From Octopus sinensis (lineage: Eukaryota), in the NCBI RefSeq assembly GCF_006345805.1, contig NC_043006.1, positions 104,036,001 to 104,100,000 of the forward strand: 64,000 nt of DNA. Direction: 5' to 3'. Below are positions 3,904-43,199 of the stretch, piece by piece. The notes beneath the pieces are model-generated. The model saw only the letters and a program-made list of their open reading frames with translations, made no database searches and was not told the DNA's origin. Positions within the stretch are counted from its first letter, which is position 1. The number at the start of each line of letters is the position of its first letter. The position numbers and the translations under genes are program-made.

Positions 3904-5789
3904 TGTATATTGTTGTCGTTGTCGTGGTCGTCGTAATTTCTGTTTGTTCATCTGCCTTGCGGGTGTTTACCGTTCTTTAAATATCTCCGCCATTCCCTGT
4001 TTCTGTCTACATCCAGCGGACATATCCAATGACTTATCGACATGTGAGATCCATTGTTTGTCGGTGTCCAACAGTCCCCTTGTTTGTGTCTCTATGTGGC
4101 TACATAGAAGAAGTTCCTATCAGTAGCAGTTAGAAATAGCAACCGAAACACTTTTCAGCTTCACATAGTGATCTTAAGAAAATCATTATAAATGCTACAG
4201 ACATAAGTACATCGACCCCAGTGTCCAACTGGTACTTATTTTAGTGACCTCGAAAAGTTGAAAGGCAAAATGACCCCCAGCGAAATTTGAACCCGAACAT
4301 AAAGACGGACGAAATGCATCAACAGCAAGTAACAAGATGCAGGGTGGTTGTGCGGTCACGAATATAGCTTGGCAACCCTATTGCTCTGTGTTCGATCTTA
4401 CAGCAAGGCACATTGGAATTTAAGAGATATAAGCACGCCACCATCGTTGCCAAGCGATGGTGAGGGGGACAAATGGCGAGTGGAGACTATTGTGCACAAG
4501 AAAATGTGTTTCATCACACGAGTTTCCATACAGAATCTTGCAAGCGAAATTCTAAAGCGAAACACGGTATGTGCGGGTCAGCCAGGGTCCCACCATCCAA
4601 CTGGTCAAACTGTTGCTGGAAGGCTGACCGGTGATCAAGGTGGACTGATTTATAGGTCACATGCAGCCTTTAGTAGCCTTATGAAACATCATTAGCAATG
4701 GGGAGACCAAACGCGAGACGCTTCTTAGAGGGAAACATAAATATATATATGTATGTATGTATGTGTGTGTATGTGTGTATGTGTGTGTGTATGTGTGTAT
4801 GTCTTTCACCGTTCTATATTGGTAAAGGATATAAACTCCAGCAACGAAGTCCAAAGTTATAATTGTTCTACATCAAGTGACATACACTTCCTTGCTAATT
4901 GCACTGGGGAATATTGTTAGCCATTATTACGCCCAGTGGAAGTCCCTAAGCATTTTGGCCAAAAGAAAAAAGAGAAGAATTATGAATGGCTTATATAATT
5001 TTTGGAGGTTTCACTTTCAGTATGGTTTGTGGTTGTCACGACTCATTATGTTGAAATGTACGTCAACTAAAAGGGATATCTCTTCTAAGTGCACCAGCTA
5101 GACTTTATATAAATATCCTTTGTTGCTGATGAACTTTGTAAACAGCTGTCGTTGTTATGTACTCGCAAATCAACTCTGGACCGACAGAGTTACTCGTAAA
5201 AGTATGCCATACTCAACATAACCCTCTTTAATGTTTTACGACAAGGATTATTACATCATGCGCACACATGTACACAAGCTTACGTACACCTTCAAACACT
5301 CACACACAAATACACACACACACACACACATACACACACGCGCGTACTCCCACATATACATGCAAACATATGAATGCATTTATGTAAACACAAACATAAG
5401 CACACACACGCGCGAAACGCTTCGCCCGGTTTCCGAACCGGGCTATGCATTAAATCCTTAAGCAAAAGGCTTCATTCCATATTGCTCCAGTCCATTCAGA
5501 GAAACCAGGAAACCGGCTATATGTTTCTGTATGACTCGGAAAGGACCCTTATTCTATGGACAACGATATCTAGTGGATTCTATAATCCATTGTTTCCTTT
5601 ATTTCTTAACACAACAGTGTTATCTCGAGGGATATTTACCTACTATTTCTAGTTGTTCCAACGAGCACATAGAGGCTCACCTTTTTGCCGCTCTGCATCA
5701 TCACACTCTATATTGGTTTCAAATTTTGGCACAAGGCCAGCAATTTTGATGGGAGGGGTTTAAGTCGATTACATTGAATCCAGTGTTCA

Positions 5790-6455
5790 ATTGGCGGTGA
5801 GATGGCAGAAACGTTAGCACGCCGGGCGAAATGCGTAGCCGTATTTCGTCTGCCGTTACGTTCTGAGTTCATATTCCGCCGAGGTCGACTTTGCCTTTCA
5901 TCCTTTCGGGGTCGATTAAATAAGTACCTTTCATCCTTCGGGGTCGATTAAATAAGTACCTTTCATCCTTCGGGGTCGATTAAATAAGTACCTTTCATCC
6001 TTCGGGGTCGATTAAATAAGTATCGCACTGGGGTACATATAATCGACTTAATCCGTTTGTCTGTCCTTGTTTGTCCTCTCTGTGTTTAGCCTCTTGTGGG
6101 TAGTAAAGAAATAGGTATTTATTTTATCGACCCCGAAAGGATAAGAAGCAAAGTCGACTCCAGCAGCATCTGAACTCAGAACTTAAAGACAGACGAAGTG
6201 TCGCCAAGCAATTTGCCCGGTGTGCTAACGATTCTGCCAGCTCACTAATCTAATATATCCTTTAATACGATTGGTTTCAAATCTTGGTACAAAGTGAGCA
6301 ATTTCGGTGGTGAGGTTTAAGTCGATTACATCGGTCCCAGTAATTTAACTGGTACTTATTTCATCGAACCTGAAAGGCATCTAAATTCAGAAGGTAAAGA
6401 CGGACGAAATGCCGCTAAGCATTTTGCCCGTCGTGCTAACGATTCCGCCAAGCTC
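5790..6455. mobile_element. Cluster of SINE family B copies with an internal 32-bp tandem amplification
   Basis: Head GGCGGTGAGATGGCAGAAACGTTAG with B-box-like GAGTTCA(A/T)ATTCC; four copies of CCTTTCATCCTTCGGGGTCGATTAAATAAGTA at 5894-6022; minus-strand copies at about 6120-6245 and 6270-6455. Confidence 0.85.
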
Positions 6456-7017
6456 ACCACCAAGTTCACCGCCGCCACCATAATCTATAAAACTACATTA
6501 TATTATCATTATCCTACATGCCACTCGCGCCAGACTTAATCATTCACGTTGTGACAGGTGCAGTAAATATGACATTAGGTAGCAAAAGGCTTCCGCATTG
6601 GCTCCAATGTGGTTTATCTGCTAAGTGGTGTTTGTAAGCGAAGCCGTCCTCACAAAGGCTGCTGCTATCGTGATACGGCGTGGGATTGTACGCAAACATT
6701 GAAACACACGCTGTAGACTTCGTACGGTTACATGACGTAATTGGAGACTTAATACTCCTTGCTACTCATGAGCTATCAAGCAAGAAGCTAAAGGAGATAT
6801 TAATTCGAAAGAGAGAACTGAGCAGCTGTTCTCAAAACAGATAAGCAAACAAATAAATACACAAAACATGATGACAACGCTCGATGTTGCCAGGTATTTA
6901 TTTACATAGATACACACACACACACACACATGCAAATACAGATACACAAACACATATTTATATACACACATACATACGTGAATGCATACATAATTACAAA
7001 GACATGTACATCCATTC

Positions 7018-7051
<34 letters not shown>

Positions 7052-7126
7052 ATATATATATATTATATATATACACGTGTATGACAGTGTGTACACCGCA
7101 TACGTTAGGGTGTACAAGCATTTATA

Positions 7127-7165
<39 letters not shown>

Positions 7166-7182
7166 GAATATATATATATATA

Positions 7183-7397
7183 CTCCTTACTCTTTTTACT
7201 CTTTTACTTGTTTCGGCTATTTGACTGCGGCCATGCTGGAGCACCGCCTTTAGTCGAGCAAATCGACCCCAGGACTTATTCTTTTTAAGCCTAGTACTTA
7301 TTCTATCGGTATCTTTTGCCGAACCGCTAGGTTACGGGGAGGTAAACACACCAGCATCGGTTGTCAAGCGATATTGGGGGACAAACACAGACACACA

Positions 7398-7473
<76 letters not shown>

Positions 7474-7614
7474 CGGCGGGCTTCTTTCAGTTTCCGTCTA
7501 CCAAATCCAGTCATAAGGCTTTGGTCGGCTATAGTAGAAGCCACTTGCCCGGAACTGAACCCGGAACTATGTGGTTGGTAAGCAAGCTATTTACTACATA
7601 GCCGGTCCTGCGCC
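7183..7614 (-). mobile_element. tRNA-derived SINE, family A, near full length
   Basis: Head GGCGCAGG...GGCTATGTAGTAAATAGCTTGCTTACC, internal (TA)n(TG)n, tail GACTAAAGGCGGTGCTCCAGCATGGCCGCAGTCAAAT...GTAAAAGAG. Confidence 0.93.
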
Positions 7615-7620
7615 TATATA

Positions 7621-7983
7621 TCATTGCTATTATGTAAAAGTGTCGTAAGTCCAAAATTTTGCCTTTTTAGAAAAATAATTTCACCATTCCATTTCTTTTT
7701 ACATTAGCACCAGTTTCAGCTTAACAATAATAATTTGTTGGAGGCATAAAAATCGTAACTCCATGCATGTATGATGTATTCAGTCAGAAATATATTTGCA
7801 AAAGTGTTGTGTGCGGGACTTACTGCAATTTTGAAAAATACTAAACCGTTGTATTACACTTTGACACTTTTCATATCTTGGCATTTGAAGCAGCTGGAGA
7901 AACGATAGTCTGACCAAAATTAAATACTGGAAAAAAAACACATTTGACCAAATTTGGACATACGGCAGTTTCAAATAATAGCA

Positions 7984-30651: not shown

Positions 30652-33329
30652 TAGATATTAAGTAATAGTTGTTACTACCTCAATGTGGTTGTTCCGTACA
30701 GAACAGTGTAACTACTTTTTTTAACCCCAGGAGGATACCTCCTCCCGTTGGTTAACGACACAACATCTGTGTCCGTTATATTGCAAACAAGGGAACGAAC
30801 AACTATCCAACGTTGACACGACCAGTAGACTATCTGGTCTCAGGGTCTTACATGGCAGTCGTTCGTCCCACTTCGCAATATATAAATAAATAAGCGACAT
30901 TCATTGATTAGATTCCTAGGGTGGAAAAAGGGTGCATTGTGTGTTGTGCAATGTATGTTATTTCTTGTTACTCCAGTTCATTCAGCTGAAATGAAGTCCA
31001 TCAGGATGTTGGAGCATCCCCATTGTTCTTCCATCTGTCACATCGTGTGTTTTTTTATTATTTCCGATACTTAGAAGGTAAATTTAGGAATTTTTATGCA
31101 CGTCTTTCAGTAGATCACCTTCCAACCGAATATTCTGTATCTTTGTACTAAGCTGTATAGCTTGTGTGGCAGTGTTACAGTTCATAATAACCAGTAACAG
31201 TACGTTAGAGCTATTTAGTTAACAGAGTTCAGAAGTTAGAAAGTAAAGTTACCCCCTAAAGTGTTGAACAAAGGACACATAGAAAACATAGATAAATTTG
31301 CCGGACGCTTTATCAATTTTTTAAAACCATTCACCATTTAGTAAAACAAATAATGGTTTCTAAATTAGGTACAAGGTCAGCAGTATAGAAAAGTTAGGGT
31401 TTGTCGATTACACTGATTCCAGCCCTTGACTGGTGCTTCATTATATCGTCTCTGGAAAGCTGAAAGGTAAAGTTGACGAGGATTTGAATTGAGAATGTAA
31501 AGAGCAGGAATAAATATCGAAAAACGCTTTTTCTTACGTTCCAAAGATTTTGAAAATCCACACACCTTTTGGTAAACTAATAACGATTAATCTGTATTCT
31601 ACAGTCATACGATTTGGATAGGTTAGGATACAGAAGATGATATCGAATCCAATACTTTGCTATATTAATCCATCAGTCCTACTAGAGGAAAGGCAAAGTT
31701 TTTCCCCCGTGTTATTTAAACTGACACAGCTAAATCCCACAAAGCTTTTTATCGCTATCACGATTTTATCACGATCAGATTCCGTCAAAATAATTTTACC
31801 GGGTTAATCCATGGTTATCGTAAAAAACAAATTGTCCACGGTACTGTATAATGGGATTGAAATTGAACGCATGATTCCACCCAATCTAAAATAAAATATT
31901 AAATAAAATACCCGTGTTATATGGGGTCAATATAGATTTTACCACATTAATCACCATTCATTCATTATTACTTTAGATACGTTGGTTTGCTCTTTAAACT
32001 ATGCATGTGTCAATGTATCTCTGTTTCATTCGGTCCTTCATTTGTTTCATGCTGGGGCACTAGGATGTGGAGTTTCATCTCAACCGAATGGACTCTTGTA
32101 TTTATCTTTGAAGGTCTGATGCTCATACAGTCGGTTGCTTTTTACTGAGTCTCTAATTTACGGGGACGTAAATAAACCATAGCTGTTTGTCACATGGTGA
32201 GGCGCAAAACATTATTGTATTTGCACACACATACACACTCTCGGTCATACACGCACTCGCTCACACACACACATATACATATACATACACAGCAGCTTCT
32301 TTTCAGTTTCCATTTGACAAATTCATTCAATGTCCGGGTTTATAGAAGAAGAAACTAGTTCAAGGTGCCACGCAGTAGGACTGAACCTGAAACTAAGGGA
32401 TTAGAAAGCAAAATTTTAACTTCCATACATATGCCTGCATCTATCACTGTTTCATTCATTTATTCCTTTTAGAATTTATCATTAATTTTGGCACCACGCG
32501 TATTGCACCAACACATATCCCAAGAAACATTTAAAATACGACAAACTACAATGTTTTACGCTTTATATTTTAGCGAGTAATCAATAAATTTAACCCTCCC
32601 CCCACACACACAGACACACACATACACATACACACATAAACACACACAGACACACACACGGAGATCAGCAACAAAGATCAAGAACAAAAACCTGATGGAC
32701 GTTGAATCTTGAACAGATTCTGATACTGCGGAACTGAAACGAAATCCATCAATCAAACTAAAAGCTTGGATAGCAATACAAAGCTTCTAAGTTTTGTTTT
32801 TCTTCTTTTCTTGATACTTTGGATCGGAAGAAAGATGTTAGTGGTGCCAGCTATTCTAATATTTCAGAATAAACAGTGAATAAACTATTTAACCCTGCAT
32901 CTGGATTCGTGCGAGATAGTTATCGAAACAATAAATTATCTGGTGTATCTAGAGCTGTAGTCGAAGCGTTACATTATATTCCATCATATTTGATTTCTTA
33001 GAAACAACCTTTTAATGAAGAAGGTCATTGTCTGCGACAGCAGTCTATTTTCCAAGAATATTTCCATAATCTAAAATTGTCTTTCTCCGAAACTGATTGG
33101 AGCAATTTTCTCCAATTAGTTTCGGTGGAAGACCAGATGAAGGGGCACATAACCGACTGACCGATCTGCTTAAAATAACAACCAAATTTCCCTCAACTTA
33201 AATCCTTCTATCTTAAGCATCCATCACAGTCATTTTTTGCTATCTTGTGGCTTGTTTGCCTTAATAAACCTGAGAGCTATTCAAGCAGAGGGTAACCCTG
33301 AGCGCTATTCAAGCAGAGAAGCAGAGGGT

Positions 33330-33457
33330 CGTCGGACGCTTTCTGTCTTCTCCCATCCTCACCATCTTTTATCATTATCATTCGCCTCATCAATGTCTTG
33401 TCCAGCCCGCAAAGCTACTCATCTTTGTACTGTCTTTATAGCAAATGAAATGAATAA
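33330..33457 (+). mobile_element. 128-bp 5'-truncated retroposon, the 3' end of the family at 41620-42944
   Basis: 11-bp TSD AAGCAGAGGGT (33319-33329 and 33458-33468); CTTGTCCAGCCCGCA..GCTACT...TTTATAGC..AAATGAAAT(G)AATAAA is homologous to 41620-41720 (-). Confidence 0.8.
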
Positions 33458-33809
33458 AAGCAGAGGGTAACCGCCTGGTAGGGCCGCCGATCTTGAATAG
33501 GTCAACATATAGAGGTCAGATTAATATGGAGCATCTTTTCCCAGAGATAAAAATGGGTTTACGTAAAAAGCACAGAAGCATAGATGACAACCCAAAACCA
33601 ACCAGACCTGGTAGAGGAGGCCCTCCGTGAGGGAAACATATGACGTAACATCTGAAAGAAGGCTGTAAGTTTGCAGCGCTTTAAAGACAGAGATCGAACT
33701 GGTGAGAAACAAAAAGACATCCCAGGGTCGAGGAGAGCAGGGAAAAGTCGTCGATGGCCAATGCTTCTTAGCGGGGGATGAGACTAAGTAAGTAAACACA
33801 AACATATTT

Positions 33810-41459: not shown

Positions 41460-41911
41460 CATATATATCCACACACACATACGACCAGTTTCTTTCAGTT
41501 TCCGTCTACCAAATCCACTCACAAGGCTTTGGTCGACCCATGGCTATAGCAGAAGACAATTTCTGAAGATGCCACGCAGTGGGACTGAACTCGGAACCAT
41601 GTGATTGATAAGGAAGCTAATTTATTTCATTTAATTGGCTATAAAATCTGTACATAAAGGAAGTAGCTGCGGGCTGGACAAGGACGCGATGATGATGGAA
41701 TGAAAGAAATGGTTGGTGGAAGAATCAAATTGTTGCATTCTCGAAAACAGTGTTCTCTTTTTTTCATTTTAAACAAAGCAAAATGAGGTATTGAACCTCT
41801 TACCTCAGTTCAATAATAATTGACGGAATCGTCTTTACCAATTGAGGCGCTGGACCTCTTACTAAGGTATACAAACAATATAGATATTGAAAATTGAGGC
41901 ACTAAGGCCTC

Positions 41912-42225
41912 TTATCTTTTCTCTTCGACCAGGCTACATGCCTCCTGCAGGCAATCCTGTAGTTCCACGTCGGTGCCCCAAAAGGCAAACCTATACTGGT
42001 CCTTCGGAAAGGAGTCCATCCCCCTAAACATTTCAACGTCCGTTAGGACTTCCGCAGTAACCTGCGGAGGCCAATCCGGGTCTTCAGTCCAGGTCATAGT
42101 CCTCTCCCTCCGGCCTTCTAGCTTCTTTATGAAGCTCTGTATAGCCCCTCTCTTATGAAAGAAGATCACAAAATCATCCGTCATCGCAGTGGTAGGGGCC
42201 ACTGTCTCCTCCGTCGGTGGCACCT
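41912..42225 (-). CDS. ORF-b of the cassette, ~104 codons open (91 aa from the first ATG), unknown product
   Basis: VPPTEETVAPTTAMTDDFVIFFHKRG...QEACSLVEEKR*; overlaps ORF-a in the +1 frame; follows an acceptor-like TTTATTTCCAG. Confidence 0.45.
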
Positions 42226-42413
42226 CTGGAAATAAACTTAGTGGTTGGCAGATATTCTGCCAACTCTTTCAATTTCAGTTTTGGGAAAGATCGTGCTGGT
42301 GTCAAGTGACTTAAAATAGTTCTCAACTCCACCGTTCTCTCATTTAAGTTTTTTAACCATTGCTTGGGTGGGATAATTTCCCACTCCAACGTAGTGTTCA
42401 CCTTCTTCGCCAT
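42174..42413 (-). CDS. ORF-a of the cassette, 79 aa, unknown product (MAKKVNTTLEWEIIPP...)
   Basis: ATG in CAAACATGGCG context 43 nt after the acceptor; non-repetitive composition; no family recognised. Confidence 0.45.
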   Translation of the reverse strand: MAKKVNTTLEWEIIPPKQWLKNLNERTVELRTILSHLTPARSFPKLKLKELAEYLPTTKFISRGATDGGDSGPYHCDDG

Positions 42414-43199
42414 GTTTGAAGAAAAAAGTCCAATAAACAGTTCAAAATAAAAAAGTCTAAACAAATTCCAAAAATAGTTTGAAAGACGACAAAGAAGAGC
42501 AGAAAGACAGAACAGAGAAAAAGAAAGAAGGAAGACAGTTCAAATCACAGCAACACACAATATCCGGACACCCGGTAACCCTGGCCGACAGATACTCCAA
42601 AAAGGCACTCCCAAAAGCACCAGGAACGCAAAAATCATCTGCCACGAATTGGTAGAACTTTCCAAAATATTTCACAATTTTTCGGAGGCGAGATACGCCC
42701 CCCCCCCCCAAGCAACAATTCTCATAATTAATTGAGACAGCGCATCTTAGGCAGCGCATCTTAGGCAGCCTCGGAACGCAGCAGCAATTTCTTGTTCGCG
42801 AACAAATGAACAACAAACAACAGACCCCCCCACTGACCCCCCCCCAAAAAAAAAACAAATGTCTTACCTTATAGTTGCGCCTTCAAATTCCTTCACTTCA
42901 AGAGCGCTACGAGAGCAACATCTTGACAATATCAGTGTAGCAGTAAGCTACTTACTACACAGCCACTCCTGCGACTATGAAGAAGAGCACTATAGGTAAT
43001 GCAGTCCAAGATAGATAAGTCACGACGAGAAACATTTTCACAATAATCGCCTCCTAAAATTTAAATGAATTTTCTCAACAACCCCAGGACTTCGACTCGA
43101 TCGTTTACTCAGGCGGCCGATTTCATAAATAAACAACAAAACACATGTTTATCTGGTTTATTATTATTATTTTTTTTACTTGATAACTCTATATTAACG

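What the first reader, a model, noticed from the sequence alone, without database searches (positions are those of the whole stretch)
41620..42944. Unclassified 1.3-kb gene-like retroposon inserted in a SINE head
Seen: removing 41620-42944 and one AAGCTA restores the SINE A head, so the boundaries and 6-bp TSD are exact. On the minus strand the insert has a 77-nt leader, a GT-AG intron-like segment (42867-42457) with G-runs and a long pyrimidine tract, an ATG in strong context, two overlapping ORFs (79 aa; ~104 codons), three repeated hairpins and an AAATGAAATAAAT end. It has no TIR, LTR, RT or tRNA head. A second copy of its 3' end lies at 33330. Inference: a non-autonomous TPRT-mobilised element carrying its own small protein(s), possibly ORF1-like or virus-derived cargo. 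Retaining an intron is unusual for a retroposed RNA. I do not recognise the protein.
Basis: partly seen in the sequence, partly recalled or inferred. Interest (0 to 1): 0.84.

Follow-up and report, generated by a model that had tools for sequence, protein, structure and literature searches.

The report
Half-LINE parasite that targets SINE heads
This is a broken copy of an abundant jumping-gene family that carries a single gene for a predicted RNA-binding protein, lands mostly at one exact spot inside another repeat (a SINE), and likely borrows its copying enzyme from a full-length LINE that uses the same spot; each trait has precedents, but the combination appears undescribed.

Summary
The insert is real, but it is not a 1.3-kb unit with two small genes. 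It is a dead copy of a 2.0–2.5-kb family. It lost ~690 nt at 42221–42223 and has two frameshifts.

Young relatives carry one intact 412–425-aa ORF1: predicted tandem RRMs, a CCHC knuckle and an unknown C-terminal domain. They have no ORF2. ORF1 is under purifying selection (shared variants pN/pS 0.18, private 1.23).

41 of 55 3' ends sit at one nucleotide of a SINE head, with duplications up to ~15 bp; the window's is 9 bp. A 5.4-kb autonomous Tx1-type LINE (EN, RT, zf-RVT) uses the same site and shares a covarying 3' hairpin, so it is the likely helper.

The 5' donor motif is conserved. Splicing is unshown: no spliced copy among 111.

Verdict: a HAL1-like, ORF1-only, SINE-targeting Tx1 satellite, a new variant of a known kind. 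The scan noted a SINE-targeting LINE fragment before in another genome (e1-7395153). Repbase could not be checked.

The parts
42945..42953 (-). 5' copy of the target-site duplication (9 bp) in the SINE head
   Evidence: L001: dup 9
42954..42973 (-). 5' part of the host SINE head, with an A-box-like motif (box consensus recalled)
   Evidence: blastn of a natural empty SINE head
42868..42944 (-). 5' leader; lacks ~20 nt that start full-length relatives (slight 5' truncation, inferred to be joined at a TT microhomology)
   Evidence: alignment to L005
42457..42867 (-). Candidate 5' UTR intron: conserved donor-like motif, U-rich tract, AG; splicing not shown
   Evidence: donor conservation; no splice evidence
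42221..42413 (-).
42221..42223 (-). Junction of a ~690-nt internal deletion (3-nt microhomology) that removed most of RRM1, RRM2, the CCHC knuckle and the linker; seen in no other scored copy
41912..42220 (-).
41623..41911 (-). 3' UTR ending in GAAATA, no poly(A)
41637..41649 (-). Terminal 4-bp hairpin shared with the autonomous LINE; covaries across the family and is decayed in this copy
41614..41622 (-). 3' copy of the target-site duplication (8 of 9 matching)
41545..41613 (-). Rest of the host SINE head, with a B-box-like motif (recalled consensus)
33319..33457 (+). 5'-truncated copy of another subfamily, outside a SINE, at a target-like site with an 8-bp duplication (33311-33318, 33458-33465)

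Best explanation
The insert is a deleted, frameshifted copy of an ORF1-only retroposon family whose copies sit mostly at one nucleotide of a SINE head, and which is likely mobilised in trans by a 5.4-kb Tx1-type LINE found at the same site. Shown: family structure, one intact ORF in young copies, no ORF2, selection on ORF1, target site, duplications, an autonomous LINE with the same target and 3' tail, and covariation of the tail hairpin. Inferred mechanism: (1) A master copy is transcribed by Pol II from its own 5' end. (2) It makes its own ORF1p (predicted RRM-RRM-CCHC, a basic stretch and a C-terminal domain), which coats its RNA in cis. (3) The 3' hairpin plus GAAATA end recruits the helper's ORF2p. 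(4) The helper's APE endonuclease nicks the SINE head at a fixed position between its A- and B-box-like motifs and primes reverse transcription. (5) Second-strand joining up to ~15 nt away gives the duplication; shorter duplications go with 5' truncation at microhomologies. Insertion re-creates the target, so tandem stacks form. It would also split the SINE's internal promoter, so the family uses a very abundant, dispensable landing pad. The window copy then lost ~690 nt and is dead. The conserved donor ~90-130 nt from the 5' end most likely acts in transcription or occasional splicing, with unspliced RNA as the template that gets copied.
For: Relatives split at query 722-724 with ~650-730 extra nt, 691 in the closest copy. 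8 of the 20 8-kb loci have an intact 412-425-aa ORF. An ORF2 hit occurs in 1 of 50 ORF1 loci, 5 kb away in a separate element. zf-CCHC is weak, E 0.008, below Pfam's cut-off. The domain model has pLDDT 83.6 and its top Foldseek hits are multi-RRM proteins (E 5e-4 to 1e-3). ORF1 matches the LINE's ORF1 at 30%, E 1e-14, and 28%, E 2e-5. dN/dS is 0.15-0.35 in the domain, 62 copies. Target: 41 of 55 3' ends at the SINE site, 6 with the duplication motif only, 8 off-target. There are 495 exact 3' junctions against 0 for the control pattern; 6 of 30 inspected carry LINE-type tails. Autonomous LINE: target motif before 20 of 21 5' ends and after all 19 3' ends detected of 21; Pfam EN, RT, zf-RVT. Hairpin: 88.7% of cells paired, 20 double changes against 3.9 shuffled, 0 of 500 shuffles as high. 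5'-truncated copies with their own duplication lie in SINE heads (L067, L066, L084, L087; L114).
Against: No mobilisation assay; trans-mobilisation rests on shared target and tail. The two ORF1s are only ~20-30% identical and form separate sides of the tree (100/100, 27 rows, midpoint root, no outgroup), so the parent LINE of the ORF1-only lineage was not found and may be another lineage. Only 50 of the 150 scored ORF1 hits (of 9365 first-look candidates) were inspected, 30 of them with just ~1.5 kb of flank. Copies were picked partly by protein similarity, which lowers dN/dS. The C-terminal domain shows weak contrast (shared 0.44, private 0.60). The hairpin was chosen by eye from these related sequences. 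Foldseek TM-scores were low (~0.27). Tx1 placement was not tested against reference Tx1 sequences.
Confidence: 0.85

Rival explanations
1. The ORF1-only family is mobilised by a different, unsampled autonomous LINE lineage that carries its own type of ORF1. The sampled LINE merely shares target and tail.
For: ORF1s only ~20-30% identical and on separate sides of the tree. The C-terminal domains do not align (hhalign probability 0.1%). Most of 9365 first-look candidates were not inspected.
Against: No ORF2 follows this ORF1 type in any of 20 loci with ~6 kb of downstream flank. All LINE-type tails among 30 junction loci belong to the sampled lineage. Some 5' ends are shared between LINE and ORF1-only subfamilies (L111/L058, L190/L050).
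Confidence: 0.07
2. The insert entered one master SINE once, and the SINE-plus-insert composite then spread as a unit (hitchhiking), so the common site is inherited, not targeted.
For: Most copies have SINE on both sides. Subfamilies tend to go with one SINE variant.
Against: 5'-truncated copies of 41-511 nt sit in SINE heads with their own duplications. Five non-modal letters are shared by both duplication copies. Many unrelated 5' ends and the autonomous LINE use the same nucleotide. Tandem stacks of different families share one duplication (L029, L055, L169, L177). Off-target copies start with target-like letters.
Confidence: 0.03
3. One reading: a 1.3-kb gene-like retroposon with two small proteins, possibly viral or host cargo, with a retained intron.
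For: Leader, GT-AG segment and two open frames are present in the window. The C-terminal domain has no known relative.
Against: No other scored copy has the 1.3-kb form. The frames arise from two small losses and one deletion in a single ORF. The N-terminal part is LINE ORF1.
Confidence: 0.03

Closest known systems
ORF1-present non-autonomous LINEs: HAL1 (L1 clade, mammals), HeT-A (Jockey clade), Ag-Sponge (CR1 clade), as listed in PMC5786205 and PMC5753468 (passages read; the HAL1 paper PMC2923044 was not held)
   Same: Encodes only ORF1p, keeps LINE-like 5' and 3' ends, depends on an autonomous partner.
   Different: The partner here is Tx1-type and sequence-specific. The target is a SINE head. 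ORF1 is deeply diverged from the partner's (~20-30%) and has an extra conserved C-terminal domain. No poly(A) tail. The passages I read list no Tx1-derived example.
Tx1-clade elements that target other transposons: Xenopus Tx1 in Tx1D; crocodilian Tx1-Mar with its non-autonomous SINEU in Mariner-N4_AMi (PMC4494074, passages read)
   Same: Autonomous LINE and non-autonomous dependants share a target inside another mobile element, with ~15-bp duplications, tandem stacking and the same hitchhiking test.
   Different: The target is a SINE, not a DNA transposon, LTR element, snRNA gene or microsatellite. The dependant is a protein-coding half-LINE, not an snRNA-headed SINE.
Stringent-type LINE/SINE pairs with a 3' stem-loop (PMC3747384, passages read)
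   Same: Shared 3' tail with compensatory changes in a stem.
   Different: Here the stem is 4 bp and is shared between a LINE and an ORF1-only element; its function is untested.
Human L1 5' UTR splice donor G98U99 and SpIREs (PMC5860796; abstract, sections 7 and 10 read)
   Same: A conserved donor ~100 nt from the 5' end of an element whose copies are nearly all unspliced.
   Different: In L1 about 2% of full-length copies are spliced and the donor is kept as part of a RUNX3 site. Here no spliced copy was seen in 111, and the donor persists across unrelated 5' ends.

Membership tests
ORF1-present non-autonomous LINE (HAL1-like) | Encodes ORF1p only, no ORF2/RT inside the unit | tested here: met
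   intact 412-425-aa ORF in 8 of 20 loci; ORF2 hit in 1 of 50 loci, outside the unit
ORF1-present non-autonomous LINE (HAL1-like) | ORF is homologous to a LINE ORF1 | tested here: met
   (30%, E 1e-14; 28%, E 2e-5); tandem-RRM fold
ORF1-present non-autonomous LINE (HAL1-like) | Amplified as its own family with TPRT hallmarks (duplications, 5' truncations, fixed 3' end) | tested here: met
ORF1-present non-autonomous LINE (HAL1-like) | 3' end shared with an autonomous partner | tested here: met
ORF1-present non-autonomous LINE (HAL1-like) | Mobilised in trans by the partner's ORF2p | not testable with these tools
   needs a retrotransposition assay
HAL1 in the strict sense | Derived from mammalian L1 | tested here: not met
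   ORF1 has a CCHC knuckle and named homologues are octopod proteins; works like HAL1, is not a member
Tx1 clade (autonomous partner) | ORF2 with APE endonuclease, RT and C-terminal zinc domain; ORF1 with CCHC knuckle | tested here: met
   closest solved structure is human L1 ORF2p, E 5e-57, against R2, E 1e-20
Tx1 clade (autonomous partner) | Sequence-specific insertion | tested here: met
   20 of 21 5' ends, 19 of 19 detected 3' ends
Tx1 clade (autonomous partner) | RT phylogeny groups with reference Tx1 elements | not tested
   no named Tx1 reference among 120 listed homologues; 'Tx1-type' rests on architecture and targeting
Spliceosomal 5' UTR intron | Conserved donor | tested here: met
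   24 of 27 UTRs with at least 7/9 match in the first 135 nt; shuffle mean 9.7, max 18; 4 of 69 downstream windows; 9 of 11 older LINE 5' ends (no control); sequences are related
Spliceosomal 5' UTR intron | Conserved acceptor | tested here: inconclusive
   an AG 26-58 nt before the ATG in 21 of 26 ORF1-only UTRs, often AAG/GAG; none within 80 nt in 4
Spliceosomal 5' UTR intron | Spliced RNA or spliced genomic copies | tested here: inconclusive
   0 of 71 and 0 of 40 copies; none; joint table cut and swamped by empty SINE sites
Processed retrogene | Intron-free copy of a host mRNA with poly(A) | tested here: not met
   no poly(A); fixed GAAATA end; LINE ORF1
tRNA-derived SINE (the host repeat) | tRNA-related head | tested here: inconclusive
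   no tRNA among 9 Rfam matches at E<=10; A/B-box-like motifs by eye, consensus recalled

The most novel reading that the evidence does not exclude
A three-tier parasite system: a Tx1-type LINE lineage specialised on killing copies of the genome's most abundant SINE, plus a long-lived ORF1-only satellite that has evolved its own C-terminal domain to hijack the helper's ORF2p, and that uses a conserved 5' UTR intron to split its RNA into a spliced messenger for ORF1p and an unspliced template that alone gets copied.
Probability: 0.22. Interest if true: 0.78.

Novelty: new variant of a known kind. Interest (0 to 1): 0.55.

Why it matters
It adds a Tx1-type case to the short list of ORF1-only elements (HAL1, HeT-A, Ag-Sponge). 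It also gives direct selection evidence that a non-autonomous element must keep its own ORF1p, which bears on the open question of why half-LINEs exist. The helper has young, near-intact copies (95-98% alike) with tight specificity for a SINE head that occurs about once per 4 kb in this window. That makes endonuclease specificity, 3' hairpin recognition and the role of a promoter-proximal splice donor testable in one natural system. It also warns that gene models such as P0001 (100% match to one family copy) are transposon ORF1s. The window copy itself is a dead fragment.

Tried and rejected
Pfam on broken copies and on the window ORFs: nothing useful.

RNA test: the look-up of sequencing runs listed no holder on record as RNA. 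I laid 3 guessed-RNA runs and 1 run of unknown kind on a young copy. Including the SINE flanks swamped the joint table with empty-site joints (15 shown, 507 hidden), so there is no verdict on splicing. Some listed contigs cross the donor or acceptor unspliced, but DNA content cannot be excluded.

Spliced-copy patterns: one search had a wrong pattern and is discarded. Searches gave 2 and 7 matches: 6 point-mutated donors and 3 unrelated chance hits. 0 of 111 does not exclude an L1-like rate of ~2%.

Deletion as a splicing product: rejected, because the junction is a GTG microhomology with no AG.

Full-length fold: pLDDT 40.9, only RRM1 usable.

C-terminal domain: no hit in the Atlas (83), in the longer-protein search (88, weak evidence), in PDB sequences (two vinculin hits at E 0.4-0.9, chance) or in Pfam, and no match to the LINE's ORF1 tail (85).

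Representative library: 834 hits. Of 155 proteins classed, only P0001 and P0002 are ORF1-only type, so I have no evidence for the family in other species.

The repeat finder on the whole window returned only microsatellites.

Literature: 7 searches listed no paper describing this family or a SINE-targeting Tx1. An octopus LINE paper (PMC9115989) has 0 occurrences of 'Tx1'. Repbase, Dfam and subscription papers were not available, and no supplements were read.

Full report
Observation. The stretch 41623-42944 (minus strand) interrupts a SINE head, whose two halves match a natural empty SINE at 42973-42942 and 41622-41545. The duplication is 9 bp with one mismatch, not an exact 6 bp.

The window copy is a deletion derivative. 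A DNA search of the own genome gave 61 matches from 40 scored of 1191 candidates. Only the window copy was continuous; relatives (69-85% identical) split at query 722-724. They carry about 650-730 more bases there, 691 in the closest copy. Alignment to a natural full-length copy shows a ~20-nt 5' truncation, a 1-nt and a 2-nt loss early in the ORF, and the large deletion at a 3-nt microhomology.

The family. A protein search gave 150 scored matches of 9365 first-look candidates. I inspected 50 of them, 20 as 8-kb stretches chosen for long open frames. Eight of these 20 hold an intact ORF of 412-425 aa. Duplication-bounded units span about 1.9-2.6 kb. An ORF2 hit was found in 1 of the 50 loci, 5 kb downstream in a separate element.

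The protein. Pfam finds only a weak zf-CCHC (E 0.008). A model from 27 natural stretches has pLDDT 83.6, and its top Foldseek hits are multi-RRM proteins (E 5e-4 to 1e-3, TM ~0.27). The full-length model was poor. After a low-complexity, basic linker comes a conserved ~90-aa C-terminal domain with no relative found. Over 62 distinct copies, pairwise dN/dS in the RRM-RRM-CCHC part is 0.15-0.35. Variants shared by three or more copies have pN/pS 0.18 and private ones 1.23. That pattern is expected if masters were selected and copies decayed. The C-terminal domain gives 0.40-0.62 pairwise, with a weak shared/private contrast (0.44 against 0.60). Copies were partly chosen by protein similarity, so the absolute values are biased low.

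Target. Of 55 distinct 3' ends found in loci retrieved by element sequence, 41 are followed by the same SINE-head sequence. Six have the duplication motif only (tandem or degenerate) and 8 are off-target. The exact junction occurs 495 times against 0 for the control. The window holds 16 SINE heads in 64 kb, so a random insertion would hit this nucleotide about once in 10,000. Duplications in 52 two-ended cases peak at 14-16 bp, with shorter values from truncation or decay; a few rows are false pairings. Hitchhiking is unlikely. Truncated copies of 41-511 nt have their own duplication inside SINE heads, five private letters occur on both sides, and different families stack at one site. The SINE's tRNA origin was not shown.

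Partner. Six of 30 junction loci had a different, LINE-type tail. Extending them gave a 5.4-kb element with ORF1 (zf-CCHC) and ORF2 (EN, RT, zf-RVT). Its ORF2 is closest to L1 among solved structures. Young copies are 95-98% alike. The target motif precedes 20 of 21 5' ends and follows all 19 detected 3' ends. Older subfamilies use the same site. Its ORF1 matches the family's at 30% (E 1e-14) and 28% (E 2e-5). In a tree of 27 stretches (from 96, thinned at 90% identity), the 17 ORF1-only rows and 10 LINE-type rows separate with 100/100 support; the root is only the midpoint. Both kinds end in the same ~40 nt with a 4-bp hairpin. In 45 tails, 88.7% of cells pair and 20 change on both sides, against 3.9 in shuffles. 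The hairpin was picked by eye and the tails are related. I call the partner Tx1-type from architecture and targeting; RT phylogeny against references was not possible.

Intron. A donor-like motif lies in the first 135 nt of 24 of 27 5' UTRs (shuffle mean 9.7; 4 of 69 downstream windows) and in 9 of 11 older LINE 5' ends, despite unrelated 5' sequences. The acceptor is not fixed (21 of 26). No spliced copy was seen among 71 LINE and 40 ORF1-only copies, nor. The read test was uninformative. Human L1 keeps a donor at +98 for promoter function, and ~2% of its full-length copies are spliced (PMC5860796, sections 7 and 10). So retention is not anomalous and splicing remains open.

Mechanism and comparison. 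The best reading is an ORF1-only satellite that makes its own RNA chaperone and borrows ORF2p through a shared 3' hairpin, inheriting the helper's SINE target; these steps are inferred. ORF1-only LINE derivatives (HAL1, HeT-A, Ag-Sponge; PMC5786205, PMC5753468, passages) are known, and so are Tx1 elements with dependants that target other transposons (PMC4494074, passages). Seven paper searches showed no description of this family, of an ORF1-only Tx1 derivative or of SINE targeting by Tx1, but Repbase was not available. Two earlier scan notes describe Tx1-like targeting of a SINE and of a Penelope tail in other genomes; I did not test them. There were no notes for this genome.

Verdict: new variant of a known kind, interest 0.55.

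Noticed in passing
L066, L084 and window 33319-33457: Three short copies (~140-150 nt) begin at nearly the same internal, target-like motif of the 3' UTR. This may be a truncation hot spot guided by microhomology, or a short SINE-like sub-family.
   Followed up: partly
L111, L161, L162, L163, L167, L171, L172 (5' ends): A subset of young LINE copies has the same extra T in the 5' duplication whatever the 3' copy reads. This suggests that part of the 'duplication' is carried on the element's RNA.
   Followed up: no
L111/L058 and L190/L050 5' ends: LINE and ORF1-only subfamilies share their first ~20-30 nt, hinting at 5'-end exchange between helper and satellite.
   Followed up: no
L029, L051, L053, L055, L158, L161, L167, L169, L177, L187: Tandem stacks of LINE and ORF1-only copies separated by one target duplication.
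   Followed up: partly
L132:3-1155: A diverged LINE-type ORF1 (long branch) followed ~550 nt later by a LINE-type tail: an internally deleted copy or a second ORF1-only lineage.
   Followed up: no
L192 (G000:C28:4512331-4513173): One family copy equals the annotated protein P0001, which has three accession numbers for one sequence; its transcript models might show 5' UTR splicing.
   Followed up: partly
L173 and related LINE 5' UTRs, ~55-65 nt before the ATG: A conserved AG directly followed by a GC-closed hairpin in several LINE subfamilies; a possible acceptor or translation element.
   Followed up: no
L092:oriented 4292-7796: A separate LINE of another lineage (ORF2 ~51-55% to the partner) lies downstream; its target was not examined.
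   Followed up: no
L009 3' flank: An off-target copy sits just upstream of a different tRNA-like repeat head.
   Followed up: no
window 1-64000: Dense microsatellites and 16 heads of the host SINE; 15 show no insert of this family.
   Followed up: partly
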